Source: Nitrososphaeraceae archaeon
GTDB taxonomy: Archaea > Thermoproteota > Nitrososphaeria > Nitrososphaerales > Nitrososphaeraceae
Reading direction: 5' to 3'
DNA: 64,000 bases
NCBI GenBank assembly: GCA_035454925.1
Contig: DATIFZ010000067.1
Span: 2,960 to 66,959 of the forward strand
The first letter of the stretch is position 1; every line of letters begins with the position of its first letter. Below, piece by piece: positions 3,419-56,050 of the stretch. The position numbers were made by a program, and so were the translations under genes. The notes below the pieces were generated by a model. That model was not told the origin of the DNA, searched no databases, and saw only the letters and a list, made by a program, of their open reading frames with translations.

Positions 3419-4096
3419 GTGCAACTTATACCAAAATTAGAAATAAAATCTTTCTCTAATATCGTTAACTTTCTCAATGAAGAAAAAGTTGGTAGGGTTG
3501 CGTCTATTGATGAAAATGGCTATCCGCAGATAATACCAATGAATTTTGCCTATGTTCGGAATAATCAGATTGATACTCAGTCAGATACTAAAAATTTTGG
3601 TTCAATATATATGCACTCTTACCCAATCGGAGAAAAAATTCACAACATCAACAGAAACTCAAAGGTCGGATTTGAGGTTGATTCTTATGTTTGTTTTTTG
3701 CCATCGTATTATTTTCATCCAACCGACGCTTCACAGGCTGATACATTGTACATTAGCGTAGTTATCAAAGGAACGGCATCTGTTGTTCAAAGTACTGATG
3801 AAAAGGCAATTGCTTTGAATGCATTAATGAAGAAATATCAAAAAGAGGGAGGCTATGAACCTCTTACTTCAAACATGGGCTCAGTTAGGGAAGTTGCAGT
3901 TTTGAAGGTCGTTCCAGTTGATCTTCGTGGTAAATATAAGATAGGACAGCATTGGATACCAAGATATAGGTTAAAAATGGCGAGGAATATTATAGAAAGA
4001 GAAAGAGAGACTGATGCCAAAAGAATTCTAGAAATAATGGGCATACAGATAAGGGAAGATGGTGGCCTAAAAGTCATTAAAGAACCCATCATGTAG
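3419..4096 (+). CDS. pyridoxamine 5'-phosphate oxidase-family FMN-binding protein
   Basis: GRVASIDENGYPQIIPMNFAY ... IYMHSYPIGEKIHNINRNSKVGFEVD pattern typical of the split-barrel PNPOx-like family. GTG start. Confidence 0.65.
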   Translation: MQLIPKLEIKSFSNIVNFLNEEKVGRVASIDENGYPQIIPMNFAYVRNNQIDTQSDTKNFGSIYMHSYPIGEKIHNINRNSKVGFEVDSYVCFLPSYYFHPTDASQADTLYISVVIKGTASVVQSTDEKAIALNALMKKYQKEGGYEPLTSNMGSVREVAVLKVVPVDLRGKYKIGQHWIPRYRLKMARNIIERERETDAKRILEIMGIQIREDGGLKVIKEPIM

Positions 4097-4377: not shown

Positions 4378-4920
4378 ATGCACTCAACCGAAAATGAAGA
4401 TCCATTTGTCAAGATAGCCAATCTGATAGGCGGGGAAGAATATCATAAAGTTGCAAGGGCCTTATTGAATACAGAAGATGCTACTGATGAGGAAATAGCT
4501 GGAGCTACGGGAATGCGAATTAATATAATCAGAAAAGTGTTGTATGACATGTTTGGTAAAGCATTAATTACGGGTATTCGAGTCAAGGACGAAAAAAAAG
4601 GATGGTTTGTGTATCGATGGAGAGCAAAAAGAGATCAAGCGGAAAACTTTATAGAAAATCAGAAAAAAAAGATTCTGGACAGGCTTCAGAAACGATTGGA
4701 ATATGAAGAATCCTCAGAATTTTACCATTGTGGGAGTACAAATTGTCCAAGAATAAAATTCGATTACGCAATGGAACTATTCTTCAAATGTCCAAACTGC
4801 AGAAATTCCCTAAATATGGTAAATAATGAAAAGGTTAAGGATGCTTTAAGATACAAGATAGAACAGATTTTATTGGATATTAGCTCCAAAGAAGAAATAT
4901 CATCTCAGACTATAGATTAA
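4378..4920 (+). CDS. tfe: transcription factor E (TFE alpha, TFIIE-alpha homologue)
   Basis: N-terminal winged helix (DEEIAGATGMRINIIRKVLYDM...GWFVYRW) followed by a zinc ribbon (HCGSTNC...CPNC). Size is typical at 180 aa. Confidence 0.85.
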   Translation: MHSTENEDPFVKIANLIGGEEYHKVARALLNTEDATDEEIAGATGMRINIIRKVLYDMFGKALITGIRVKDEKKGWFVYRWRAKRDQAENFIENQKKKILDRLQKRLEYEESSEFYHCGSTNCPRIKFDYAMELFFKCPNCRNSLNMVNNEKVKDALRYKIEQILLDISSKEEISSQTID

Positions 4921-5547
4921 AACAATTTCTTTTTTGTCTTGTATTATTGATTTTACCAGCTTCATTCTAATTGCATTATAGATGTAGGAAATACCTTCAC
5001 CCTCAACTAATGTCTTTGCATCTCTGCCGCCAATTACTATCGGTGCAATCGTAACAATTAATTCATTGACAAGACCCAATTTTAAGACAGACCAGTTAAT
5101 TTCTCCTCCTCCCTCGACGAGTATCTTTTTGAGACCTAACTTTTCTAAATGTTGGAATAGATTTATGAAGTTCACTTTTTCTCTACCCATTACTAATACT
5201 TTTACACCTTTCTTTTCTATTTCTTTAATTTTCTTTAAAGAAGCATCATGAGTTACGGCCACGAATGTTTGAATTTTCTTTGATGATCTCATAATCCTAG
5301 AGTCTAATGGAATTCTTGCTTTTGAATCAATAATAATTCTTGCGGGATTCTTTACCGCTCTTGCATATCTTACATTTAACATAGGATCATCTTTCAAGAC
5401 AGTTGATATCCCAATCACTATACCATCTACAGTCGACCTTAACTTGTGGACACGTACCCAATCAATTTTAGAAGAAATTGACGAATCGTTTTTCCTAGTA
5501 GTAATCTTACCATCTATTGACATTGCTGCGTTTAGGATTACATACAA
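4900..5547 (-). CDS. arfC: 2,5-diamino-6-ribosylamino-4(3H)-pyrimidinone 5'-phosphate reductase (RibD C-terminal domain type)
   Basis: YVILNAAMSIDGKI start and ...LVEGGGEINWS motif of the RibD_C/DHFR-like reductase family. TTG start. Last gene of the riboflavin operon. Confidence 0.85.
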   Translation of the reverse strand: MYVILNAAMSIDGKITTRKNDSSISSKIDWVRVHKLRSTVDGIVIGISTVLKDDPMLNVRYARAVKNPARIIIDSKARIPLDSRIMRSSKKIQTFVAVTHDASLKKIKEIEKKGVKVLVMGREKVNFINLFQHLEKLGLKKILVEGGGEINWSVLKLGLVNELIVTIAPIVIGGRDAKTLVEGEGISYIYNAIRMKLVKSIIQDKKEIVLIYSLR

Positions 5548-6779
5548 CTAAATTCATCTCCATCAACAAATTTACCATTTATCATAACATTGAGAATGCA
5601 GTTTGCATTTGCTCTGTGTATTACGGAAACATGAGGGTCATGCATGGGTGAAATATCCAAATTGTTTTTGTCAATAAATATAATATCCGCTGCCTTGCCA
5701 GTCATTATGGCTCCAGAATTTATGCCGAGTATTTTTCCTCCGTTAATTGTGGCCATTTTCAAGATTTCTCTTGCTGGAATTGGCCGACCCGCTGATGTCC
5801 GGGACACTTTCCAGATATAATCTAATTCCCGAAACATGTCCGGAGAATTAATCATAATGTTGTCTGTACCAATACCAACACAACATCCTGAACTTAACAT
5901 CTTGGCAATTCTTGGTATTCCAACTCCAAGGGTACTGTTTGCTCTAGGACAAACAACAATTCCAATTTTTTTTCTAGCAACAAGTTCAATATCAACATCA
6001 GATGCATGTGTTAAATGAACAACAAAATTTGGCAAGAGGTTTGATACTATTCTTTGAACCTCGCTTTTACCTGTTACAGTAATTGATTTCTTTGTTGTTT
6101 CAAGTGATTCAGCAGCATGGATACCTATCAAAATTTTTTTTTCCAAAGAATTTTTATGTATTACTTTTTCATACTCAATCAATGAATTATCTGTGTTCTC
6201 ATTAGCTCCACTTATGCCCAACCCATCAGCTACGCCGGCAATCTGAAAAACAAGTTCTATTACATCTGGGGGCAATTTTGGATTTTTGACAAAATCTTTC
6301 GATATGTCATGGTAAAATTCTGGTCTGCCTAATACAATACCTTTTATTGATAATCCTGATATTGCTTCTTTAATTTGGTCTATTCCTTCAAGTCCGCCCT
6401 CCCTGAAATCTGCAAATGCAACCATGCCATTTCTCATCATGGACATTGCAGAACTTCTCATAAAGTTGACTAAATGCTTTCTTTCGCTATTTCGCAGGAT
6501 CTTATTTTTGATACCATAAATCGGATGGATCCTTGTTTCAAATGCTGAGTCAACTCCAATGTCCTTTCCAAAGGAATCACCAATGTGTGTATGAGCATTA
6601 ATAAATCCAGGAATAGCTAATATGCCTTCTCCATCATAAATTGCGCCGTACGTTCTTCCCTTATAATCTCCTGTGCCGACACTTTCTATTATTCCATTTT
6701 TGACTACTATATATCCATTATCAATGTATTCAAGATTTTCGCCTATGAATAGACTAATGTTCCTAATATTTAGTGCCAT
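5538..6779 (-). CDS. amidohydrolase-superfamily protein (COG0402 chlorohydrolase / aminopurine-pyrimidine deaminase-like)
   Basis: PGFINAHTHIGDS (HxH metal motif), HAAES, VVHLTH and GIGTDN motifs. Overlaps arfA and arfC by 10 nt each. Confidence 0.8.
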   Translation of the reverse strand: MALNIRNISLFIGENLEYIDNGYIVVKNGIIESVGTGDYKGRTYGAIYDGEGILAIPGFINAHTHIGDSFGKDIGVDSAFETRIHPIYGIKNKILRNSERKHLVNFMRSSAMSMMRNGMVAFADFREGGLEGIDQIKEAISGLSIKGIVLGRPEFYHDISKDFVKNPKLPPDVIELVFQIAGVADGLGISGANENTDNSLIEYEKVIHKNSLEKKILIGIHAAESLETTKKSITVTGKSEVQRIVSNLLPNFVVHLTHASDVDIELVARKKIGIVVCPRANSTLGVGIPRIAKMLSSGCCVGIGTDNIMINSPDMFRELDYIWKVSRTSAGRPIPAREILKMATINGGKILGINSGAIMTGKAADIIFIDKNNLDISPMHDPHVSVIHRANANCILNVMINGKFVDGDEFSCM

Positions 6780-7558
6780 TCTATTTCATAAACAGGTTGA
6801 AGTATACCTTTATCTCTAAGACTTCGGATTGTATCCAAGGCCTCTGTTGCAGCTTGTACTGCTTTTCTACCGGTAACAGCTCTACCTATCCCACAGTTTA
6901 GTTTGACATTTTGAGAGTCTTGGATTTTATTAATTATTTCGGTTACTTTCTCTTTAGAAACAGCATTAGAAATCACCATAAAGTTATCACCACCGAGAAA
7001 AAATGTCATGGATTTTTGTTCGATAAACATCTGAATAAGCTTTGAAAACACCTCCGTGACTCTTGCTGTAATTTCATATGGGGAGAGCATATTACTAACT
7101 TTGGTGGAATTATCTATATCGATGTGTAAAACTTGAGCAAACAAATCCATGGGTGATTTTACTGAATTATTATACATTAATTGAATTTGTTCACTTGCAT
7201 ATACCAATTTGCTATTTTTGACCAATGTGTTGTTTTTACGTGAATTGTGTGCTGCAATGTTTGCATCCAAAGGAGTTTTGCCTATTCCGATAGCCATTGA
7301 AATCTCAATACCCTTGTACATATTGTTAATTTCCTGTTCAATAAATAAGTGATCATTAATGGATAATCCGTTACTAATTGCAATTAGTTCATCAAATCTA
7401 TTAAAGTATAAGATACAATTCCTCTTAGTGAAAAGATCTTGCAAATCGCTATAGAAACTTGCTTGGAATATTTGTAATTGGGCCTCCCTATCGCTTCCCA
7501 ATTTTAATGTCCATGGACCATAACCCTCGATCTTTATTATGGTAATTTGAATGGTCAT
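6770..7558 (-). CDS. arfA: GTP cyclohydrolase III (archaeal riboflavin/F420 pathway)
   Basis: IQITIIKIEGYGPWT N-terminus, FNRFDELIAISNG, VLHIDIDN, FFLGGDNFMVISN and CGIG, all remembered from MJ0145-type ArfA. Confidence 0.85.
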   Translation of the reverse strand: MTIQITIIKIEGYGPWTLKLGSDREAQLQIFQASFYSDLQDLFTKRNCILYFNRFDELIAISNGLSINDHLFIEQEINNMYKGIEISMAIGIGKTPLDANIAAHNSRKNNTLVKNSKLVYASEQIQLMYNNSVKSPMDLFAQVLHIDIDNSTKVSNMLSPYEITARVTEVFSKLIQMFIEQKSMTFFLGGDNFMVISNAVSKEKVTEIINKIQDSQNVKLNCGIGRAVTGRKAVQAATEALDTIRSLRDKGILQPVYEIEWH

Positions 7559-7575: not shown

Positions 7576-8004
7576 CTAATTGTCTTCGAATTCCAACAAT
7601 CTCGTTACCATTTTGTATGCAGCTTCGACTCCTCTCTTGGGAACAATTCTGGCTCTTTGCTTGGCCTGCTTTAGTGTCATATCAGGTCCCGTTATTCCGA
7701 GTGTGACTGGCTTTTGATACTTTAAAGCTAAATCAGAAAGTAATCTAGCGGTATTATTTGCTATAACGTGATCATGGCCTGTCTCTCCCTTTATGACTGC
7801 ACCTAAAGTGACTACCACATCAATTTGTTCTTTTTTCAATAGTTTTTCGACAACCAAAGGCATGTCAAATGTTCCAGGTACATGACATATTTTTACAATA
7901 TGCAAGTTTAACTTCTTTGCATGCGATATGGCTGTTTTAAGCATTTCATTAGTGATCTCTTTGTTAAACTCAGCTACGACTATACCTAACCTTATTTTAC
8001 TCAA
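7576..8004 (-). CDS. ribH: 6,7-dimethyl-8-ribityllumazine synthase
   Basis: RLGIVVAEFNKEIT...VPGTFDMP...VVTLGAVIKGETGHDHVI, the classic lumazine synthase pattern. Confidence 0.9.
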   Translation of the reverse strand: MSKIRLGIVVAEFNKEITNEMLKTAISHAKKLNLHIVKICHVPGTFDMPLVVEKLLKKEQIDVVVTLGAVIKGETGHDHVIANNTARLLSDLALKYQKPVTLGITGPDMTLKQAKQRARIVPKRGVEAAYKMVTRLLEFEDN

Positions 8005-8011
8005 AATATAT

Positions 8012-8701
8012 TCAATTCACATATGATTCTTTAATTTGAAGGGATTCGACCAAGGGGATATTAAATCTTGAAGAATATTCCATTGCTTTGTCAACTGTTA
8101 ATGCATCACCTGTCTCAGAGTCGAGCATTTCACAAATTACGGCCGATTGGACCATATTTGCCAATTTCATTAAATGGATAGATAATTCGGTATGACCAGA
8201 TCTTTCCTTAAGCAATTCGTTTGCAGCGATTAGTAAAGGTACATGGCCTGGAGATCGAAACTTCTCAAAAAACTCATTCCTACCATAATTATCTATATCA
8301 GAACATACTTCTGCCATTTTCATAATTGTAAGGGCTCTATCTTTATCTGTTACACCTGTAAAGGTATCCATATGGTTTATTGTAATTGAAAATGAAGGTC
8401 GATCACCGTAGGGGGCAATAGAACTTATCATTTTAGATAAGGATGAGTAATTCTTGGAAGCCAAATGAAGCAAATCATGCATAAATATCAAATTTAATTT
8501 TGATGCAATTTCGCCTGATATGGCCAAGCATATTAGTCCGCCCGCATCAATTCGCATTGTTGCTATATCACGTGCGTTAACATATTGAGCAGGTTTCACC
8601 ATATCAACCTCGTTTTCTCGAGATTCGCTATCATGAATCAAGACAAATTTCCCTTCCCTTAGGCTCCGTATAGCATCTTCAATTGATTTCACTGGTTTCA
8701 A
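8012..8701 (-). CDS. ribB: 3,4-dihydroxy-2-butanone 4-phosphate synthase
   Basis: RENEVDMV, GGLICLA, RSPGHVPLL, RSGHTELS motifs. Confidence 0.9.
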   Translation of the reverse strand: MKPVKSIEDAIRSLREGKFVLIHDSESRENEVDMVKPAQYVNARDIATMRIDAGGLICLAISGEIASKLNLIFMHDLLHLASKNYSSLSKMISSIAPYGDRPSFSITINHMDTFTGVTDKDRALTIMKMAEVCSDIDNYGRNEFFEKFRSPGHVPLLIAANELLKERSGHTELSIHLMKLANMVQSAVICEMLDSETGDALTVDKAMEYSSRFNIPLVESLQIKESYVN

Positions 8702-8745
8702 AACACTATCTACAATTAAAAAGGTTACTGTTTTTCTGGTAATAA

Positions 8746-9351
8746 CTAAGAATGTGGTAATAATTTTGTGACATACTTGCTTAAAATGTCTGCCTCAATA
8801 TTAACTTTATCTCCTTTTCGCTTATTTTTAAAAGTGGTAACGGCAAGTGTATGAGGGACCAAAGCAACTGAAAATCTTGTATCTGCGACATCAACAATGG
8901 TAAAGCTTATGCCATCTAGTGCAACAGAACCTTTTGGTACCAAATACTTTGATATCTCCTTGCTCATATTTATCCACATTTTGGTCTCAGAGGGAATCTT
9001 CCTGATATCTTCTATTTTTCCAACGCCATCTACGTGACCCAAGACAATATGCCCTTCAAGTCTATCGTTTATCCTCAAACTCCTTTCTAGGTTTACTTTA
9101 TCTCCAACTTTCAAGATTCCTAAAGCAGTTCGTTTCATGGTTTCTTTTACGACTTCAAAATACGCTACGCTTTTCAAAATCCGTGTTGCGGTGAGGCATG
9201 TTCCATTGACATTTACACTGTCACCTACTTCTAGACCCTTGCTCAGTTTTCCTAGATCTATTTCGATCCTATTGTCGGCGGCTTTATCATTGTCATCTAT
9301 TTTGACCATTGATTTGATAATTCCAGTACCTTCTACGATACCAGTGAACAT
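8746..9351 (-). CDS. ribE: riboflavin synthase (bacterial/eukaryotic-type two-barrel alpha chain)
   Basis: MFTGIVEGTG start, NGTCLT and DGISFT repeat motifs, GHIVLGHVDG. Confidence 0.9.
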   Translation of the reverse strand: MFTGIVEGTGIIKSMVKIDDNDKAADNRIEIDLGKLSKGLEVGDSVNVNGTCLTATRILKSVAYFEVVKETMKRTALGILKVGDKVNLERSLRINDRLEGHIVLGHVDGVGKIEDIRKIPSETKMWINMSKEISKYLVPKGSVALDGISFTIVDVADTRFSVALVPHTLAVTTFKNKRKGDKVNIEADILSKYVTKLLPHS

Positions 9352-9494: not shown

Positions 9495-10607
9495 ATGGGA
9501 TTTGTACAGACCATTAGGGAAGACGAATTAACCAATGGAACAAGTAAAGTAATTTCTGTAAAGGGTAAAGATATTGTGTTATTTAACATAGGTGACAGGA
9601 TTACCGCATTGGGCAATAGTTGCCTGCATAAGGGTGGTCCACTTGCAAAGGGAAAGATAGAAAAAAAATACGATGGCTTTTATGTTACTTGCCCATGGCA
9701 TGGGTGGGAATATAATATCTCGAATGGAAAGGCACCTCCTGGTTACGATGAACAACAATCGGTTTTTGATGTCAGAATAGTTAATGGAAAGATCTTTGTT
9801 TCAAGTCAACCTATCGTTTATTCGTCTAAGAAAAAATATGATAGCCCGTTGAAGGATCTAATAGAGCTTGAATTTCAGACCACAACTAATTCATTGAACA
9901 TTCTGGGAATATCTACTACAAATATGAACGACAATTTGAAAAGAGATTCTACTTCTGAAATATCGCTTAATAAAGCACTGTCCTATGCAAAGGAAAAATA
10001 CAAGGCATCCACAGTTCTCCTAAGACTCAGAGATCTTGAATTCAGACACTGTGAAGGGTATTACAGCATTAATGAACAGGCATGTACGTGGCCCTGCTCG
10101 ATTTCAGAGATGGATGAAAACGATGGGATGAATGAAGTTTATAGAAAGATGATACTCTGGGCGGATATTGTAATTATCTCTACGCCAATAAGATGGGGTA
10201 ATGCATCTTCATTATACCATAAAATGATAGAACGACTAAATTGCGTACAAAATCAGACCACACTTCACGATCGTGTGCTTGTCAAAAATAAGGTTGCATG
10301 TTTTATTATTACTGGAGGACAAGACAATATACAACATGTTGCAGGAAATATGATGATGTTTTTCACCGAGCTTGGATTTTCATTGCCTCCGTTTGCATTT
10401 ATGGGCTGGAGTAGAGGTTGGACCGCAGAGGATATGGAAAATAATGTAATTCAATTTTCAAAATCCCGATACATTAACAGGTCAGTTAAGGATCTTGTCG
10501 ACAACAGTATAAAATTACTTTATCAAATTAAGGCTAATCCATGTAAAGTTGTATCTTCCCCCCAGCCAAAAATTGTGGAGGCTCTGACAAAAACAAAGCA
10601 GGATTAA
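9495..10607 (+). CDS. Rieske [2Fe-2S] domain fused to a flavodoxin-like NADPH-dependent FMN reductase domain
   Basis: N-terminal CLHKGGPL...CPWHGWEY (CxH...CxxH). The C-terminal half has ILGISTT...ADIVIISTPIRWGNASS...FIITGG, typical of the FMN_red/iron-sulfur flavoprotein fold. Confidence 0.75.
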   Translation: MGFVQTIREDELTNGTSKVISVKGKDIVLFNIGDRITALGNSCLHKGGPLAKGKIEKKYDGFYVTCPWHGWEYNISNGKAPPGYDEQQSVFDVRIVNGKIFVSSQPIVYSSKKKYDSPLKDLIELEFQTTTNSLNILGISTTNMNDNLKRDSTSEISLNKALSYAKEKYKASTVLLRLRDLEFRHCEGYYSINEQACTWPCSISEMDENDGMNEVYRKMILWADIVIISTPIRWGNASSLYHKMIERLNCVQNQTTLHDRVLVKNKVACFIITGGQDNIQHVAGNMMMFFTELGFSLPPFAFMGWSRGWTAEDMENNVIQFSKSRYINRSVKDLVDNSIKLLYQIKANPCKVVSSPQPKIVEALTKTKQD

Positions 10608-51131: not shown

Positions 51132-53255
51132 ATGGAGATAGAGGCGAGCCATGATCTAATAACTCAATCTGAAACTAAGCCTAGTGGCATTTTACAAGCA
51201 GCAAAAAGAGTTAGAATGATTTTCTCTGTTATGGCGAGTCCTAACAGAATCGATATTTTGCGAATCTTAAATTCAAAAGGACCTTTAACTTATTCTGAAT
51301 TAAAATCGTTAGCTGGTTTCAAATCTAAAAAGGAATCAGGTAAATTTGCTTACCATTTAAGGAAGCTCTTGAGGCAGTCACTTGTCGCATTAAATAAGGC
51401 GGAAAGGAGGTACACGATTACCAATCTCGGAAAACTTGTCCTGAGTCTGGCAAGACAAATTGAAGAGAGATCCATTATTGAAAGCGGCAAAATGTACGTG
51501 CGAACTTCTAGACATTCAATCGAAGAATTTAATTCTAATAGAATAACTCAATCATTGGTCCGGGAAGCCAACATGCCTCTTGAACAGGCGCATAAGATAA
51601 CTGAAGAAGTGGAAAACAAAGTTTACAAATTCCAAACGGTCTATCTTACTTCCTCTCTCATTAGAGAGACTGTCAATTCGATATTAATTGAGCATGGTTA
51701 TGAGGAATTCAGATCAAAACTAGCTAGACTAGGTCTTCCGGGCTCCGATATCTCTGAAATGTTTAACAATCCTTTATATAGCAAAAATGGTGTGGAAGGA
51801 ATTTTATCAGAAACATCTCTTGCAGTTTTTTCCGAAAATCTGCTATTCAACACGTTACCTAAGGATATAACTGATATGCATCTTGCCGGCGAACTAAATA
51901 TTTCAAACACCGGGCTTTGGAACTTGGTGCCTGACACCGTATTTATTGATACTCGCAATATCATTGAAAATGGTCTAGACTTTAAAGGAAAATACTTGAA
52001 TGTTTCAAGATTAAAGCCAATTCGGACACTTGATGACATTACAGAGGTTCTACCGGTATTGATTTCGGTCTTAAGCAGAGAAACTTCAAGGGAGATAATA
52101 CTTGATAATTTTGTTTCTAGCATTTCGAAGAGGATTCAGGAGAGTAGTGAATCAATAGAGGCTGCATTTTCTAGGGCATTTATATCATCATCCATTTCAA
52201 GGTCATTTTCATCTTCAGGTTTTCCAGTAGTTACTTTTCCTATCTATCTTGATGAAAGCTCGATAACCAGATCTATTTTGGTGGCCTACATGAAATATTT
52301 AGACCACACGCCTATTCCAACTATTGCGTTATCTCTTGTTGGTAAGGATCATGAGTCTCTAGGTACAAATTCGAATCTAATAGCTAGCATAGTCAAAAAT
52401 GGTGGAATTCTGTCCGCATCCAAGAACTTCAGAAGCCATATGGGGATTGTAAAAAATGCGGCTGACGAGAAAGCTAGTTCTATTGTAAGCTTGCAGTCCT
52501 TAGCAATAAATCTGCCAAGACTAGCCTATCAGTCAAATAAAGATGAAACCTATTTCAGAGCCAGATTAGCACTGATGATAAAGCCAGCTATTTCAGCTCT
52601 GTTGGCAAGAAAGAACTCCATACTGGAAATGATTCGAAGAGAAATGCTTCCTGTAGTGGCCAACATTACCCAAATGATGCAGTTAAGCAGGATGAATCTG
52701 GTAATTAACCTGACTGGAGTTAGGGAGTCGGTTTACAATATACTAGGACATGAATTTGACGGAGAAGAAATAATTCAAAAGGTATTACATACTGCTGTTG
52801 ATGTTGCTTCAGATCAAGGGAAACAATTTGGAGATGATTCCATAAGAATTGCTATGATCACAGATGACAGCAGTAATAGACTAGCTTCTTTAGACTCTGA
52901 AAAATATGGGAACATGTATCGACAAGCTGGTGATAAAATGATGATAAAGTCTTATTCACAAGGTCTTCTTGTAAACGGGCGAGATTTACTTGCAAATAGC
53001 GGTCCTATAATAGAATCAACTAACTCAATTGACGGATTACTGAATGGTGGCGTTTCTATCAATGTTGACACTAGTGATCTGGAGGATAACGAATTCATAG
53101 AGTCCGTTAACAAATCTTGCGGTTTCAATTTCTTCAGGCCAATATACAGGAACAAAATTTGTAGCTCGTGCGGCACCAAGATTTCTATGTCGTCCGAAGT
53201 TTGTAAAAGCTGCGGATCTACCAATTTTTCCAATATAATAATGCCGAATCAATAA
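51132..53255 (+). CDS. wHTH (ArsR-like) + ATP-cone + degenerate NrdD-like (class III RNR) body + C-terminal zinc ribbon; no glycyl-radical segment
   Basis: The wHTH reads SPNRIDILRILNSKGPLTYSELK..FAYHLRKL..RYTITNLG. The ATP-cone reads MYVRTSRHSIEEFNSNRITQSL...LTSSLIRETVNSILIEHGY. NrdD-like landmarks are MHLAGELNISN, ENGLDFKG...LKPIRTLDDI and LQSLAINLPRLAY. The ribbon is CSSCG...CKSCG, and the protein ends 14 aa after it. Confidence 0.7.
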   Translation: MEIEASHDLITQSETKPSGILQAAKRVRMIFSVMASPNRIDILRILNSKGPLTYSELKSLAGFKSKKESGKFAYHLRKLLRQSLVALNKAERRYTITNLGKLVLSLARQIEERSIIESGKMYVRTSRHSIEEFNSNRITQSLVREANMPLEQAHKITEEVENKVYKFQTVYLTSSLIRETVNSILIEHGYEEFRSKLARLGLPGSDISEMFNNPLYSKNGVEGILSETSLAVFSENLLFNTLPKDITDMHLAGELNISNTGLWNLVPDTVFIDTRNIIENGLDFKGKYLNVSRLKPIRTLDDITEVLPVLISVLSRETSREIILDNFVSSISKRIQESSESIEAAFSRAFISSSISRSFSSSGFPVVTFPIYLDESSITRSILVAYMKYLDHTPIPTIALSLVGKDHESLGTNSNLIASIVKNGGILSASKNFRSHMGIVKNAADEKASSIVSLQSLAINLPRLAYQSNKDETYFRARLALMIKPAISALLARKNSILEMIRREMLPVVANITQMMQLSRMNLVINLTGVRESVYNILGHEFDGEEIIQKVLHTAVDVASDQGKQFGDDSIRIAMITDDSSNRLASLDSEKYGNMYRQAGDKMMIKSYSQGLLVNGRDLLANSGPIIESTNSIDGLLNGGVSINVDTSDLEDNEFIESVNKSCGFNFFRPIYRNKICSSCGTKISMSSEVCKSCGSTNFSNIIMPNQ

Positions 53256-53326: not shown

Positions 53327-56050
53327 ATGGCAAAGGAAATTACCGAAATTGATGATTCTTCGCACGCAAATAAAAAAGCTATCGCGCAAATTAGGAAGAG
53401 GGACAAAGGACTAGTTGATTTTAATAATTCAAAGATTTCTAATGCCATCTACAAAGCGTTAATGGCAGCAGGTAAAACAGATTACAAGCTTGCTGAAAGA
53501 TTATCAGAAAAAGTTGTCCAAAAAATGGATCAACAATTTTCTATTTTAGATACCAACCGAATTCCGAGTGTAGAAGATGTCCAGGATATGGTTGAATCAA
53601 TCTTGATTGAAGAAGGACTATCAGAAACTGCAAAGGCATATATTCTATACAGACATGAACGCCGCAAGGTTAGAGATGAAAAGAAGAAAATTCTAAATAA
53701 GAAGGATTTGGACGAAGTTGATAAGTCATTTGACATTAATTCTCTACGAGTGCTAGCTTCACGCTACTTGTTAAGAGATAACAATAATGATATAATAGAA
53801 GATCCTAAATTGCTTTTTGAACGGGTCGCAATTCTCGTAACAATCCCCGATATACTGCATGATGCAGAATTGTATTCAAATAGTGAAGTAGTAGTTCAAA
53901 ATATTACTGAAGCTGAAGAATATTACAAAAAAATTGATGATTTTCACATGAAACTAAAAATTGGCAATCACTATCTTAACCGATTTCATTTTGAATCAAT
54001 GATTAGGCATTACATTAACTTGGCAAAAAGTGGACGTATGAAAGTTAGCTTTAAGGACCTTTTGCGACTTATTGCCGAGGGGCGCCTGTCGAAGTACTCT
54101 GATAGAATTATTGAATATAATAATCTGATGGTTACAAAGGACTTTTTACCAAACACTCCAACTCTTATGAATGCTGGAGCAAAACTTGGCCAGCTGTCAG
54201 CATGTTTTGTATTGGATATGAAAGACGACATGACGGAGATTATGAAATCTTCCACTGACGCAGCAATGATTTTCAAATCTGGAGGAGGAGTTGGAATTAA
54301 TTACTCAAAACTTCGTCCCGAAGGTGATATCGTAGCATCAACCTCTGGTGTTGCTTCGGGACCGATCTCGTTCATGAGAATCATAGACACAATTACTGAT
54401 GTAGTAAAACAGGGCGGAAAAAGAAGGGGAGCAAACATGGGAATCATGGAATCATGGCATCCGGATATTGAAAAGTTCGTGACCGCCAAAACTAAGCCAG
54501 GCATATTCGAGAACTTTAACGTAAGCGTTGGAATTTGGAGTGATTTCTGGGAATCGATAATTAATGAAAATAATCATCGATACACACTGAAGAATCCTAC
54601 TACCAATGAACCCGTCAAGCAAATTGACTCACATCAGCTCTTGGATTTAATTACTTTTAGTGCATGGAAAAGTGCAGAGCCAGGCGTTATATTCTTTGAT
54701 AATATCAATAAATATAATCCGTGTATCAACGTAAAGGAAGGACCACTTAGAGCAACAAATCCCTGTGGGGAGCAATCATTATACCCATATGAGTCATGCA
54801 ATTTAGGATCCATCAATTTAGCAAACTTTGTGAAGCGTAATATAGATGGAAAGTATGAATTTGATTGGCAACGTTACGAGCAAGCAATACGTCTTTCGAC
54901 CCGATTTTTGGATAATGTAATAGACATGAACAAATATCCGGTTGAAGAAATCGAACATAATACACAGTTAACAAGGAGAATCGGACTAGGAATAATGGGT
55001 ATTGCTGATCTCCTATTTACTTTAGAGATACCATACAATTCGAAAGAAGGTTACGAGTTTATGAACAGAGTAGCTGAAGCACTTTCTTATTATAGCATGG
55101 AAGAAAGCGTTGCGATTGCAAAAGCAAGAGGCGCATTTCCATTATTCAACCAGACTGATTATGTTGAAGGAAAAATGATACCAGTGGCTGGATACTATGA
55201 AATTCCAAAACGATACCATTCTTATGACTGGGATTCATTAGTTGAGAAGATTGGTAAATATGGAATCAGAAACTCATGGACTACTACAATCGCACCTACC
55301 GGAACATTGTCTATGATAGCTGACACTTCGAACGGAGTCGAACCAGTTTTTGCACTAGTTTTCGAAAAACGGGTCACCGTAGGAAGATTCTTTTACACAA
55401 ATAGAATATTTGAAAATATGCTTAAAGAAAATGGCTTGTATAATGATGAAATTTTAACGAAAATTGCAAATAACTATGGTTCTGTGAGAGGATTGGCAGA
55501 AATCCCAGAAAGGCTACAGAAAATATTTGTAACAGCCATTGATGTGCATTGGACGGATCATCTTATGGCACAAGCAATTTGGCAAAAATGGATTAGCAAC
55601 GCAATAGCAAAAACTATTAACATGCCGTCTGATGTCACGGTCGAAGATATCAAGGCTGCCTATCTATTGTCTCATGAAATGGGATTGAAGGGCGTTACGG
55701 TCTACAGAGATGGCTCTAGGCATGAACAGGTGCTACATATAACTGGAAATGACAAAGAGAAAAAATTCATTGTAAAGCCAAGCTCTCATGTGGTTGACCA
55801 TATTCATAGTAACATTAAGCAAGATTATGTGATGAGCCAGGTTGAAAAAGTGTTTAGAGATACAGAAGAAATAGAGGCAACTGAAACCACAGTAAATGTA
55901 TCTCAATCCAAGCTGAAAATGAACATGAATGCACTGCCTAATGACTATCAGGAGCACGAAACGTGTCCGTCATGTAATGCAAGGCTGATAATAACTGAAG
56001 GCTGCAATATGTGCATTGAATGTGGATTTAGCTCTTGTATGTCAGGTTAA
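53327..56050 (+). CDS. nrdJ: adenosylcobalamin-dependent ribonucleotide reductase (class II) with N-terminal ATP-cone and C-terminal zinc ribbon
   Basis: ATP-cone (IRKRDKGLVDFNNSKISNAIYKA), PTLMNAG, SACFVL, NPCGEQSLYPYESCNLGSINL, TIAPTGT, C-terminal CPSC...CNMCIEC. Confidence 0.92.
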   Translation: MAKEITEIDDSSHANKKAIAQIRKRDKGLVDFNNSKISNAIYKALMAAGKTDYKLAERLSEKVVQKMDQQFSILDTNRIPSVEDVQDMVESILIEEGLSETAKAYILYRHERRKVRDEKKKILNKKDLDEVDKSFDINSLRVLASRYLLRDNNNDIIEDPKLLFERVAILVTIPDILHDAELYSNSEVVVQNITEAEEYYKKIDDFHMKLKIGNHYLNRFHFESMIRHYINLAKSGRMKVSFKDLLRLIAEGRLSKYSDRIIEYNNLMVTKDFLPNTPTLMNAGAKLGQLSACFVLDMKDDMTEIMKSSTDAAMIFKSGGGVGINYSKLRPEGDIVASTSGVASGPISFMRIIDTITDVVKQGGKRRGANMGIMESWHPDIEKFVTAKTKPGIFENFNVSVGIWSDFWESIINENNHRYTLKNPTTNEPVKQIDSHQLLDLITFSAWKSAEPGVIFFDNINKYNPCINVKEGPLRATNPCGEQSLYPYESCNLGSINLANFVKRNIDGKYEFDWQRYEQAIRLSTRFLDNVIDMNKYPVEEIEHNTQLTRRIGLGIMGIADLLFTLEIPYNSKEGYEFMNRVAEALSYYSMEESVAIAKARGAFPLFNQTDYVEGKMIPVAGYYEIPKRYHSYDWDSLVEKIGKYGIRNSWTTTIAPTGTLSMIADTSNGVEPVFALVFEKRVTVGRFFYTNRIFENMLKENGLYNDEILTKIANNYGSVRGLAEIPERLQKIFVTAIDVHWTDHLMAQAIWQKWISNAIAKTINMPSDVTVEDIKAAYLLSHEMGLKGVTVYRDGSRHEQVLHITGNDKEKKFIVKPSSHVVDHIHSNIKQDYVMSQVEKVFRDTEEIEATETTVNVSQSKLKMNMNALPNDYQEHETCPSCNARLIITEGCNMCIECGFSSCMSG

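What the first reader, a model, noticed from the sequence alone, without database searches (positions are those of the whole stretch)
5538..6779. COG0402-type amidohydrolase translationally coupled between arfA and arfC in the riboflavin operon: candidate for the missing archaeal pathway step
Six minus-strand genes form ribE-ribB-ribH-arfA-amidohydrolase-arfC (9351 down to 4900). The amidohydrolase start overlaps the arfA stop by 10 nt (6770-6779). Its stop overlaps the arfC TTG start by 10 nt (5538-5547), so the three genes are almost certainly co-translated. In the archaeal pathway ArfA (GTP cyclohydrolase III) produces a formamido-pyrimidine. That product needs a formamide hydrolase (ArfB, creatininase-fold in Methanocaldococcus), then the reductase ArfC, then a pyrimidine 2-amino deaminase. 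As far as I know, the gene for that deaminase has been unclear in archaea. No ArfB-like or RibD-deaminase (CDA-fold) gene is in the cluster. This protein carries the HxH / HAAE / H / TDN metal-site series of the guanine/cytosine/MTA-deaminase branch of the amidohydrolase superfamily. It could plausibly perform either the deformylation or the deamination.
Basis: partly seen in the sequence, partly recalled or inferred. Interest (0 to 1): 0.7.

Follow-up and report, generated by a model that had tools for sequence, protein, structure and literature searches.

The report
Predicted archaeal riboflavin-pathway pyrimidine deaminase gene
The gene wedged between arfA and arfC in this soil ammonia-oxidising archaeon is a metal-dependent deaminase of the MJ0699 family; this family was proposed in 2010, and has not been tested as far as I could find, as the missing deaminase of archaeal vitamin B2 synthesis, so the finding is real but a rediscovery.

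Summary
On the minus strand lie ribE, ribB, ribH, arfA, a 413-aa amidohydrolase (5538-6779) and arfC. The amidohydrolase overlaps each neighbour by 10 nt and carries the HxH / HAAE / H / TDN metal-site residues.

The gene order arfA-amidohydrolase-arfC is kept wherever the contig reaches, in all 80 Nitrososphaeria genome loci fetched. The same family sits in riboflavin operons of Asgard archaea and Methylarchaceae. In a Bathyarchaeia genome it is followed by arfC and the FO-synthase genes cofG and cofH.

Three of those operons also encode a creatininase-fold (ArfB-like) protein. This argues against the deformylase reading and for the deaminase reading. The AlphaFold model (pLDDT 91.7) best matches an isocytosine deaminase, which removes the 2-amino group from the same 2-amino-4-oxopyrimidine core.

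The idea is not new. The protein belongs to the same family (NCBIfam NF005552/PRK07213) as M. jannaschii MJ0699. MJ0699 is the "PyrD" candidate proposed in 2010 (Osterman, Overbeek, Rodionov), described as untested in 2017 and still listed as an open issue in 2021. One genome's deposited annotation already calls it "Pyrimidine deaminase archaeal predicted". I found no experimental test.

Verdict: a sound, well-supported but already published prediction, of modest interest.

The parts
8746..9351 (-). ribE, riboflavin synthase of the bacterial (Lum_binding) type, 201 aa; first gene of the cluster
   Evidence: PF00677 E 4.6e-46; NF006767 220.8 bits (cut-off 155).
8725..8760 (-). Two adjacent RbkR-type operator sites, TTAC-N10-GTAA. 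The site at 8725-8742 is exact; the site at 8743-8760 has one mismatch. They span the ribE stop and the ribE-ribB spacer, about 24 nt upstream of the ribB start.
   Evidence: An exact site lies between ribE and ribB in 42 of 58 AOA loci, against a background of 0.086 sites per kb. The motif and its tandem arrangement in Thaumarchaeota are described in PMC5397151.
8012..8701 (-). [quoted passage not shown]
   Evidence: PF00926 E 6.6e-53; TIGR00506 213.7 bits (cut-off 177.45).
7576..8004 (-). ribH, 6,7-dimethyl-8-ribityllumazine synthase, 142 aa
   Evidence: PF00885 E 2e-37; TIGR00114 141.5 bits (cut-off 84.6).
6770..7558 (-). arfA, GTP cyclohydrolase III, 262 aa; its stop overlaps the amidohydrolase start by 10 nt
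   Evidence: PF05165 GCH_III E 2.3e-57. NF002587 scores 184.5 bits, below its cut-off of 306.
5538..6779 (-). MJ0699-family amidohydrolase (NF005552/PRK07213), 413 aa. Predicted 2,5-diamino-6-ribitylamino-4(3H)-pyrimidinone 5'-phosphate 2-aminohydrolase, the 'archaeal PyrD'. Metal and catalytic residues: H63, H65, H221, E224, H255, D306. Family signature motifs: D68, K91, DFREGG 124-129, CPR 277-279.
   Evidence: (325.9 bits against cut-off 294).
4900..5547 (-). arfC, 2,5-diamino-6-ribosylamino-4(3H)-pyrimidinone 5'-phosphate reductase, 215 aa; its TTG start overlaps the amidohydrolase stop by 10 nt
   Evidence: PF01872 E 5e-48; TIGR01508 214.2 bits (cut-off 186.45), aligned from residue 1.

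Best explanation
The 413-aa protein is the thaumarchaeal orthologue of M. jannaschii MJ0699 and of the haloarchaeal candidate HVO_2483. These belong to a distinct subfamily of the COG0402 branch of the amidohydrolase superfamily.

It most likely catalyses the step of the archaeal riboflavin/F420 pathway that has no assigned enzyme. That step is hydrolytic removal of the 2-amino group of 2,5-diamino-6-ribitylamino-4(3H)-pyrimidinone 5'-phosphate, giving 5-amino-6-ribitylamino-uracil 5'-phosphate and ammonia. In the pathway order ArfA (ring opening of GTP), a creatininase-fold deformylase, then ArfC (reduction), it acts after ArfC.

Inferred mechanism:
- One divalent metal is held by H63, H65, H221 and D306.
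- The metal activates water, with H255 and E224 (HxxE motif) shuttling protons.
- Hydroxide attacks C2 of the pyrimidine and ammonia leaves, as in guanine, cytosine and isocytosine deaminases.
- Residues invariant or nearly so in this family (D68, K91, R126-E127 of DFREGG, R279, R389) are candidates for holding the ribityl phosphate tail.

The gene is probably transcribed from an RbkR-controlled promoter as ribB-ribH-arfA-AH-arfC and translated in step with its neighbours.

Shown here: family identity, active-site residues, fold, synteny, operator site. Inferred: substrate, reaction order, metal, tail-binding residues, coupling.
For: Family identity:
- NF005552 is the only NCBIfam model above its cut-off for the window protein (325.9 against 294; the next model scores 120.8 against 609).
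- NF005552 is also the top model for MJ0699 (589 bits), for Methanotorris and M. maripaludis members, and for the Asgard and Bathyarchaeia members.
- The window protein is 35% identical to MJ0699 over 369 residues, E 6e-58.
- MJ0699 is Q58110, and a sister cluster is annotated 'Pyrimidine deaminase archaeal predicted'.

Synteny:
- arfA-AH-arfC is kept, wherever the contig reaches, in all 80 Nitrososphaeria loci.
- ribB-ribH-ribC-arfA-AH-arfC-creatininase in Freyarchaeum, Lokiarchaeota and Methylarchaceae.
- ribB-ribH-ribC-arfA-AH-arfC in Jordarchaeales.
- ribB-ribH-ribC-AH-arfC in Helarchaeota, with cofG/cofH-type radical SAM genes nearby.
- AH-arfC-cofG-cofH in Bathyarchaeia. FO synthase uses the dephosphorylated product of the proposed reaction (established pathway knowledge).

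Chemistry:
- H63, H65, D68, E224, H255 and D306 are invariant, and H221 is in at least 90%, across 33 representatives down to 27% identity.
- The AlphaFold model has pLDDT 91.7 and pTM 0.92.
- The best fold match is the isocytosine (2-amino-4-oxopyrimidine) deaminase Vcz, TM 0.84 and E 1.3e-28. It is followed by AtzA, TrzN, adenosine/MTA deaminases and guanine deaminases.

Regulation: an RbkR-type operator lies upstream of ribB and is conserved in 42 of 58 AOA loci.

Literature: the candidate was proposed from clustering and co-occurrence with riboflavin genes (PMC5397151; PMC8305020).
Against: - I found no biochemical or genetic test of any family member in the literature library.
- In Methanotorris, Methanobacterium and a Thermoplasmatales MAG the gene is not next to riboflavin genes.
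- Paenibacillaceae members that also pass the NF005552 cut-off sit in a different cluster that looks like nucleoside catabolism or salvage. The family therefore does not have one universal context.
- The fold-search margin between the isocytosine deaminase and the other COG0402 enzymes is small.
- I did not measure genome-wide co-occurrence with arfA/arfC or anti-correlation with CDA-type RibD.
- The substrate form (ribityl or ribosyl) cannot be told from sequence.
Confidence: 0.75

Rival explanations
1. The amidohydrolase is the formamide hydrolase of ammonia-oxidising archaea. On this reading it replaces ArfB by deformylating the ArfA product, or it does both deformylation and deamination.
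For: - No creatininase-fold gene lies in the AOA operon or anywhere in the 64-kb window.
- The gene sits directly after arfA.
- The amidohydrolase superfamily as a whole includes amide hydrolases (general knowledge).
Against: - Three distant lineages have this family and a creatininase-fold gene in the same riboflavin operon.
- M. jannaschii has MJ0699 as well as ArfB, which was characterised there (PMC5397151).
- The HxxE signature and nearly all close sequence and fold relatives are deaminases or dechlorinases acting on amidine or guanidine-type carbons, not formamidases.
- A creatininase-family gene exists in at least one Nitrososphaeraceae genome, about 5 kb from the operon (L026).
- Sponge AOA are reported to carry creatininase genes annotated arfB (PMC11812461).
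Confidence: 0.07
2. It is a deaminase for an unrelated substrate, such as a nucleobase, nucleoside, pterin or damaged metabolite. On this reading it only travels with the riboflavin genes, or acts in repair or salvage around the pathway rather than in the main line.
For: - Bacterial family members lie between a PfkB kinase and a PsuG-like (Indigoidine_A) gene, with an ABC transporter, a PNP_UDP_1 phosphorylase, an amidase and PTPS.
- Euryarchaeal members are unlinked to riboflavin genes and lie next to CTP synthase or carAB.
- COG0402 enzymes vary widely in substrate.
Against: - The position between arfA and arfC is kept over at least 54% sequence divergence within Nitrososphaeria, while the flanking genes change.
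- The family turns up again in Asgard, Methylarchaceae and Bathyarchaeia operons.
- The window protein scores far below the cut-offs of the models for MTA/SAH, 5'-deoxyadenosine, guanine and 8-oxoguanine deaminases.
- The deaminase is an enzymatic step up to lumazine with no gene in these operons. The phosphatase is the other unassigned step. This is inference from operon content.
Confidence: 0.12
3. It deaminates the ribosyl intermediate before ArfC acts (the bacterial order of steps), not the ribityl intermediate after it.
For: - In the operon the gene lies upstream of arfC.
- Nothing in the sequence distinguishes ribosyl from ribityl substrates.
Against: The archaeal pathway described in M. 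jannaschii has the deamination and reduction steps in the reverse order to bacteria, with ArfC acting directly after ArfB (PMC5397151, citing Graupner et al. 2002). Gene order is a weak guide to reaction order.
Confidence: 0.15

Closest known systems
MJ0699 (UniProt Q58110) / HVO_2483 family: the 'PyrD' archaeal pyrimidine deaminase candidate (Osterman, Overbeek and Rodionov 2010, as cited in PMC5397151; PMC8305020). NCBIfam NF005552/PRK07213, named 'chlorohydrolase'.
   Same: - Same NCBIfam equivalog model, above its cut-off.
- 35% identity to MJ0699 over nearly the full length.
- Same invariant residues and signature motifs.
- Same kind of evidence: clustering with riboflavin genes.
   Different: - The thaumarchaeal proteins are about 30-40 residues longer, with an insertion after the fourth barrel strand (around residues 155-175, the lower-confidence part of the model).
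- They are more tightly embedded in the operon than the methanococcal genes, which stand alone.
Isocytosine-specific deaminase Vcz (PDB 7WW2, 8IS4)
   Same: - Best structural match: TM 0.84, E 1.3e-28.
- Same (β/α)8 barrel and metal-site layout.
- Removes the 2-amino group of a 2-amino-4-oxopyrimidine, the core of the riboflavin intermediate.
   Different: - Only about 20% sequence identity.
- The NCBIfam model for its relatives (8-oxoguanine deaminase, NF006055) scores 98 bits against a cut-off of 532.
- It acts on a free base, with no ribityl phosphate tail.
- It lacks the DFREGG motif.
RibD N-terminal domain / yeast Rib2 / plant PyrD (cytidine-deaminase-fold riboflavin deaminases)
   Same: The proposed reaction is the same type (EC 3.5.4.26-like): zinc-activated water replaces the 2-amino group of the diaminopyrimidinone nucleotide.
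   Different: - Unrelated fold and no sequence similarity.
- No H/CAE…PCxxC motif.
- This would be a non-homologous replacement.
Guanine deaminase, the MTA/SAH and 5'-deoxyadenosine deaminases (TM0936 family), AtzA/TrzN
   Same: - Same superfamily branch (COG0402).
- Same HxH, HxxE, H and D catalytic set.
- TM-scores of 0.77-0.85.
   Different: - Scores far below each family's curated cut-off (for example 105.8 against 522, and 69.3 against 375.4).
- Family-specific motifs differ.
ArfB (MJ0116) and bacterial BrbF, creatininase-fold formamide hydrolases
   Same: Neighbouring step in the same pathway. Encoded in the same operon as this family in three lineages.
   Different: Different fold (PF02633), different chemistry (amide hydrolysis) and not homologous. 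The window protein has no similarity to them.

Membership tests
MJ0699 / NF005552 (PRK07213) family, the predicted archaeal pyrimidine deaminase | Whole-protein score above the curated NCBIfam cut-off, with no competing model above its own cut-off | tested here: met
   325.9 bits against 294, covering profile positions 5-379 of 382. The next model scores 120.8 against 609. The margin above the cut-off is small; MJ0699 itself scores 589.
MJ0699 / NF005552 (PRK07213) family, the predicted archaeal pyrimidine deaminase | Full-length homology to MJ0699 (Q58110) | tested here: met
   35% identity, E 6e-58, 369 aligned residues. The identity of P0537 with Q58110/AAB98692.1 is shown.
MJ0699 / NF005552 (PRK07213) family, the predicted archaeal pyrimidine deaminase | Family signature motifs beyond the generic metal site: HxHxxD, G-x-K-H, DFREGG, CPRxN, GTDN | tested here: met
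   D68, K91, D124, R126, E127 and N281 are invariant, and C277, P278 and R279 are in at least 90%, of 43 members that include Methanococcales, Asgard, Bathyarchaeia and bacteria. The solved COG0402 structure 3LNP has 'FaDmy' in place of DFREGG.
MJ0699 / NF005552 (PRK07213) family, the predicted archaeal pyrimidine deaminase | Chromosomal clustering with riboflavin biosynthesis genes (the basis of the published prediction) | tested here: met
   Not met in Methanotorris, Methanobacterium or a Thermoplasmatales MAG.
MJ0699 / NF005552 (PRK07213) family, the predicted archaeal pyrimidine deaminase | Deaminase activity on 2,5-diamino-6-ribitylamino-4(3H)-pyrimidinone 5'-phosphate | not testable with these tools
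No published assay was found.
Amidohydrolase superfamily, COG0402 mononuclear deaminase branch | (β/α)8 barrel with an N-terminal β-sandwich, and the residues HxH (strand 1), HxxE (strand 5), H (strand 6) and D (strand 8) | tested here: met
   PF01979 E 1.6e-40; model pLDDT 91.7. TM 0.77-0.85 to many COG0402 structures. H63, H65, E224, H255 and D306 invariant, H221 in at least 90%.
ArfB formamide hydrolase (creatininase fold, NF033501 / PF02633) | Creatininase fold | tested here: not met
   no PF02633 or NF033501 hit for the window protein.
RibD / Rib2 deaminase (cytidine deaminase fold, PF00383) | CDA fold with the H/C-A-E … P-C-x-x-C zinc site | tested here: not met
   no PF00383 hit; the motif is absent from the protein and from every ORF of the window.
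MTA/SAH, 5'-deoxyadenosine, guanine and 8-oxoguanine deaminases | Score above the respective NCBIfam equivalog cut-off | tested here: not met
   NF012037 84.4 against 779; NF005557 105.8 against 522; TIGR02967 69.3 against 375.4; NF006055 98.3 against 532.

The most novel reading that the evidence does not exclude
In ammonia-oxidising archaea no ArfB gene lies in the operon or in the 64-kb window. There, the amidohydrolase might carry out both hydrolytic steps around ArfC: deformylation of the ArfA product and the 2-deamination. That would make it a bifunctional enzyme that collapses two pathway steps into one protein.
Probability: 0.05. Interest if true: 0.6.

Novelty: already known. Interest (0 to 1): 0.3.

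Why it matters
The deaminase and the phosphatase are the steps of archaeal riboflavin and F420-precursor synthesis that still lack a proven enzyme.

If the MJ0699 family is that deaminase, a TIM-barrel amidohydrolase has replaced the cytidine-deaminase-fold enzyme used by bacteria, fungi and plants. It would also allow correct annotation of a gene that databases still call 'chlorohydrolase' or 'amidohydrolase family protein' in thousands of archaeal genomes, including the globally abundant ammonia oxidisers.

The hypothesis was published in 2010, repeated in 2017 and 2021, and already appears in some deposited genome annotations. What this analysis adds is wider synteny evidence (Nitrososphaeria, Asgard, Bathyarchaeia, Methylarchaceae), evidence against the deformylase alternative, and a structural parallel with isocytosine deaminase.

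Tried and rejected
- The search for related loci with the 33-sequence alignment failed because no stretch was conserved enough. The repeat with 10 sequences returned only Nitrososphaeria, so contexts outside that class came from single-protein look-ups.
- The genome-wide check for ArfB and CDA-type RibD in this organism could not be done.
- As a partial substitute I searched the window and all fetched loci with an operon-encoded creatininase. The window had nothing. Among the AOA loci there was one hit, in Nitrososphaeraceae locus L026.
- The supplementary tables of Rodionova et al. 2017, which would list the thaumarchaeal PyrD genes, are not held. I established the link to MJ0699 through cluster membership instead.
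- A PAP2 phosphatase at 1781-2440 was considered as the missing pathway phosphatase. It is kept only in the closest relatives, so I dropped it.
- TTAC-N10-GTAA sites were sought upstream of ribE and none was found.
- The operon-linked creatininase-fold proteins were tested for ArfB membership. They score 33-40 bits against a cut-off of 180, so I call them ArfB-like by context only.
Full report
**1. The observation.** The minus strand between 9351 and 4900 holds six back-to-back ORFs. Pfam and NCBIfam identify them:

| Gene | Coordinates | Evidence |
|---|---|---|
| ribE | 8746-9351 | Lum_binding type |
| ribB | 8012-8701 | DHBP_synthase |
| ribH | 7576-8004 | DMRL_synthase |
| arfA | 6770-7558 | GCH_III, E 2.3e-57 |
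| amidohydrolase | 5538-6779 | Amidohydro_1, 413 aa |
| arfC | 4900-5547 | TIGR01508, 214 bits against cut-off 186 |

The sequence shows the amidohydrolase ATG inside the last codons of arfA, and its TAA inside the first codons of arfC, which starts with TTG. The exact protein is on record from a Nitrososphaeraceae metagenome-assembled genome.

**2. Is the arrangement meaningful?** A scan of one genome per species returned 80 loci, all Nitrososphaeria, with proteins 46-93% identical to the query. I searched their six-frame ORFs with the window's proteins. Every locus keeps arfA-AH-arfC, and ribE-ribB-ribH upstream, wherever the contig reaches. The outer neighbours (TFE, a PNPOx-like gene, a Rieske/FMN-reductase gene, a ClC channel) come and go.

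Outside this class, look-ups of individual family members gave these contexts:

| Lineage | Gene order |
|---|---|
| Freyarchaeum | ribB-ribH-ribC-arfA-AH-arfC-creatininase |
| Lokiarchaeota | ribB-ribH-ribC-arfA-AH-arfC-creatininase |
| Methylarchaceae | ribB-ribH-ribC-arfA-AH-arfC-creatininase |
| Jordarchaeales | ribB-ribH-ribC-arfA-AH-arfC |
| Helarchaeota | ribB-ribH-ribC-AH-arfC, with cofG/cofH-type radical SAM genes nearby |
| Bathyarchaeia | AH-arfC-cofG-cofH |

The Bathyarchaeia case is telling. FO synthase consumes 5-amino-6-ribitylamino-uracil, the dephosphorylated product of the proposed deaminase reaction (established pathway knowledge). In Methanotorris, Methanobacterium and a Thermoplasmatales MAG the gene stands apart from riboflavin genes.

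**3. What kind of enzyme?** The only NCBIfam model above its cut-off is NF005552/PRK07213 'chlorohydrolase' (325.9 against 294). Models for MTA/SAH, 5'-deoxyadenosine, guanine and 8-oxoguanine deaminases score far below theirs.

An exhaustive search of 1.84 billion cluster representatives found about 200 clusters at E ≤ 1e-30, set apart from a long tail of other COG0402 proteins. Across 33 representatives down to 27% identity, H63, H65, D68, E224, H255, C277, D306 and T344 are invariant. H221, K91, the DFREGG motif (124-129), P278, R279 and R389 are nearly so.

No solved structure belongs to the family; the best profile match to a PDB sequence is 3LNP at E 4.7e-45. The AlphaFold model is confident (pLDDT 91.7, pTM 0.92). 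Its best PDB fold match is the isocytosine-specific deaminase Vcz (TM 0.84, E 1.3e-28). AtzA, TrzN, adenosine/MTA deaminases, TM0936 and guanine deaminases follow closely. Isocytosine is 2-amino-4-oxopyrimidine, and the riboflavin intermediate is a 5,6-substituted isocytosine. The margin over the other matches is small, so this is a parallel, not proof.

**4. Deaminase or deformylase?** Three distant operons carry this family together with a creatininase-fold gene. M. jannaschii has the family member MJ0699 as well as ArfB, which was characterised there (PMC5397151). The closest sequence and fold relatives are almost all deaminases or dechlorinases. I therefore rate the deformylase reading at about 0.07.

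Three caveats apply:
- The operon-linked creatininase-fold proteins do not reach the NCBIfam ArfB cut-off (33-40 bits against 180). They look more like the MftE and creatininase models, so they are ArfB-like by context only. A creatininase-fold formamidase outside the ArfB family, BrbF, is known in bacteria (PMC9478397).
- The window has no creatininase-fold or CDA-motif ORF, but 64 kb cannot speak for the genome.
- One related Nitrososphaeraceae locus has a creatininase-family gene about 5 kb from the operon (L026). Sponge-associated AOA are reported to carry creatininase genes annotated arfB (PMC11812461).

**5. Comparison with what is known.** Rodionova et al. 2017 state that RibD-type deaminase orthologues are missing in Archaea. 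[quoted passage not shown] Pfeiffer and Dyall-Smith 2021 name the candidates as HVO_2483 and MJ0699 (Q58110) and list them as an open issue (PMC8305020).

Starting from the Methanotorris family member, I recovered the Methanocaldococcus clusters. They contain Q58110 'Uncharacterized protein MJ0699' (also deposited as 'atrazine chlorohydrolase isolog') and entries named 'Pyrimidine deaminase archaeal predicted'. MJ0699 is 35% identical to the window protein (E 6e-58) and hits the same NCBIfam model. Full-text searches found no experimental test.

**6. Regulation.** The same 2017 paper gives TTAC-N10-GTAA as the RbkR operator consensus in Thaumarchaeota, usually as two adjacent sites. The window has one exact site at 8725-8742 and an adjacent one-mismatch site at 8743-8760. 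Both lie between ribE and ribB.

One exact match per window is what chance would give. The position, however, is conserved: 42 of 58 AOA loci have an exact site in the ribE-ribB junction, and none has one upstream of ribE. This places the amidohydrolase in a predicted flavin-responsive unit, ribB-ribH-arfA-AH-arfC.

**7. Verdict.**
- The gene belongs to the MJ0699 family: about 0.97.
- The family is the pathway deaminase: about 0.75.

The main rivals are an unrelated or repair-type deaminase (0.12) and the deformylase or bifunctional reading (0.07). The question of whether it acts before or after ArfC is a variant of the main explanation, not a rival to it. Interest is modest (0.3): the function is still unproven and easy to test, but it has been an explicit, published candidate since 2010.

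Noticed in passing
window 8725-8760; the ribE-ribB junction of AOA loci L001-L080: Tandem RbkR-type operator (TTAC-N10-GTAA) between ribE and ribB, not upstream of ribE. An exact site is present at this junction in 42 of 58 AOA loci. ribE may therefore be transcribed separately from ribB-ribH-arfA-AH-arfC.
   Followed up: partly
L084 1124-15570 (Paenibacillaceae) and L089 1-13258 (Cohnella): Bacterial members that pass the same NCBIfam cut-off sit in a conserved cluster: creatininase-fold gene, ABC transporter, PNP_UDP_1 phosphorylase, PfkB kinase, AH, Indigoidine_A (PsuG-like), cupin, amidase, isochorismatase, FAA_hydrolase, PTPS. This looks like uptake and breakdown or salvage of a ribosylated aminopyrimidine or pterin-like compound. 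The substrate is unknown.
   Followed up: partly
L081 9845-10558, L088 7887-8573, L091 8894-9634: The creatininase-fold genes at the end of the Asgard and Methylarchaceae riboflavin operons score only 33-40 bits on the NCBIfam ArfB model (cut-off 180). They score better on the MftE and creatininase models. They may be a separate class of pathway deformylase, like bacterial BrbF.
   Followed up: partly
window 9495-10607 (+): A 370-aa fusion of a Rieske [2Fe-2S] domain with an FMN_red (NADPH-dependent FMN reductase) domain, transcribed divergently from ribE. It is kept at this position in the closest relatives (L001, L002, L003, L010) and is absent from the fetched flanks of the more distant loci.
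   Followed up: no
window 8746-9351, compared with L081, L082, L088, L090 and L091: Ammonia-oxidising archaea use a bacterial-type riboflavin synthase (RibE, Lum_binding). The Asgard and Methylarchaceae operons have two DMRL_synthase-family genes (RibH plus archaeal RibC) instead.
   Followed up: no
window 3419-4096 (+): A PNPOx-like (Pyridox_ox_2) putative FMN-binding protein lies about 0.8 kb beyond arfC, on the far side of the TFE-alpha gene. It is kept near the operon in many Nitrososphaeraceae loci but not in Nitrosopumilaceae.
   Followed up: no
window 51132-53255 (+): A 707-aa protein combining HTH, ATP-cone and NRDD-like (anaerobic ribonucleotide reductase) regions lies directly upstream of a 907-aa ribonucleotide reductase large subunit (53327-56050).
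   Followed up: no
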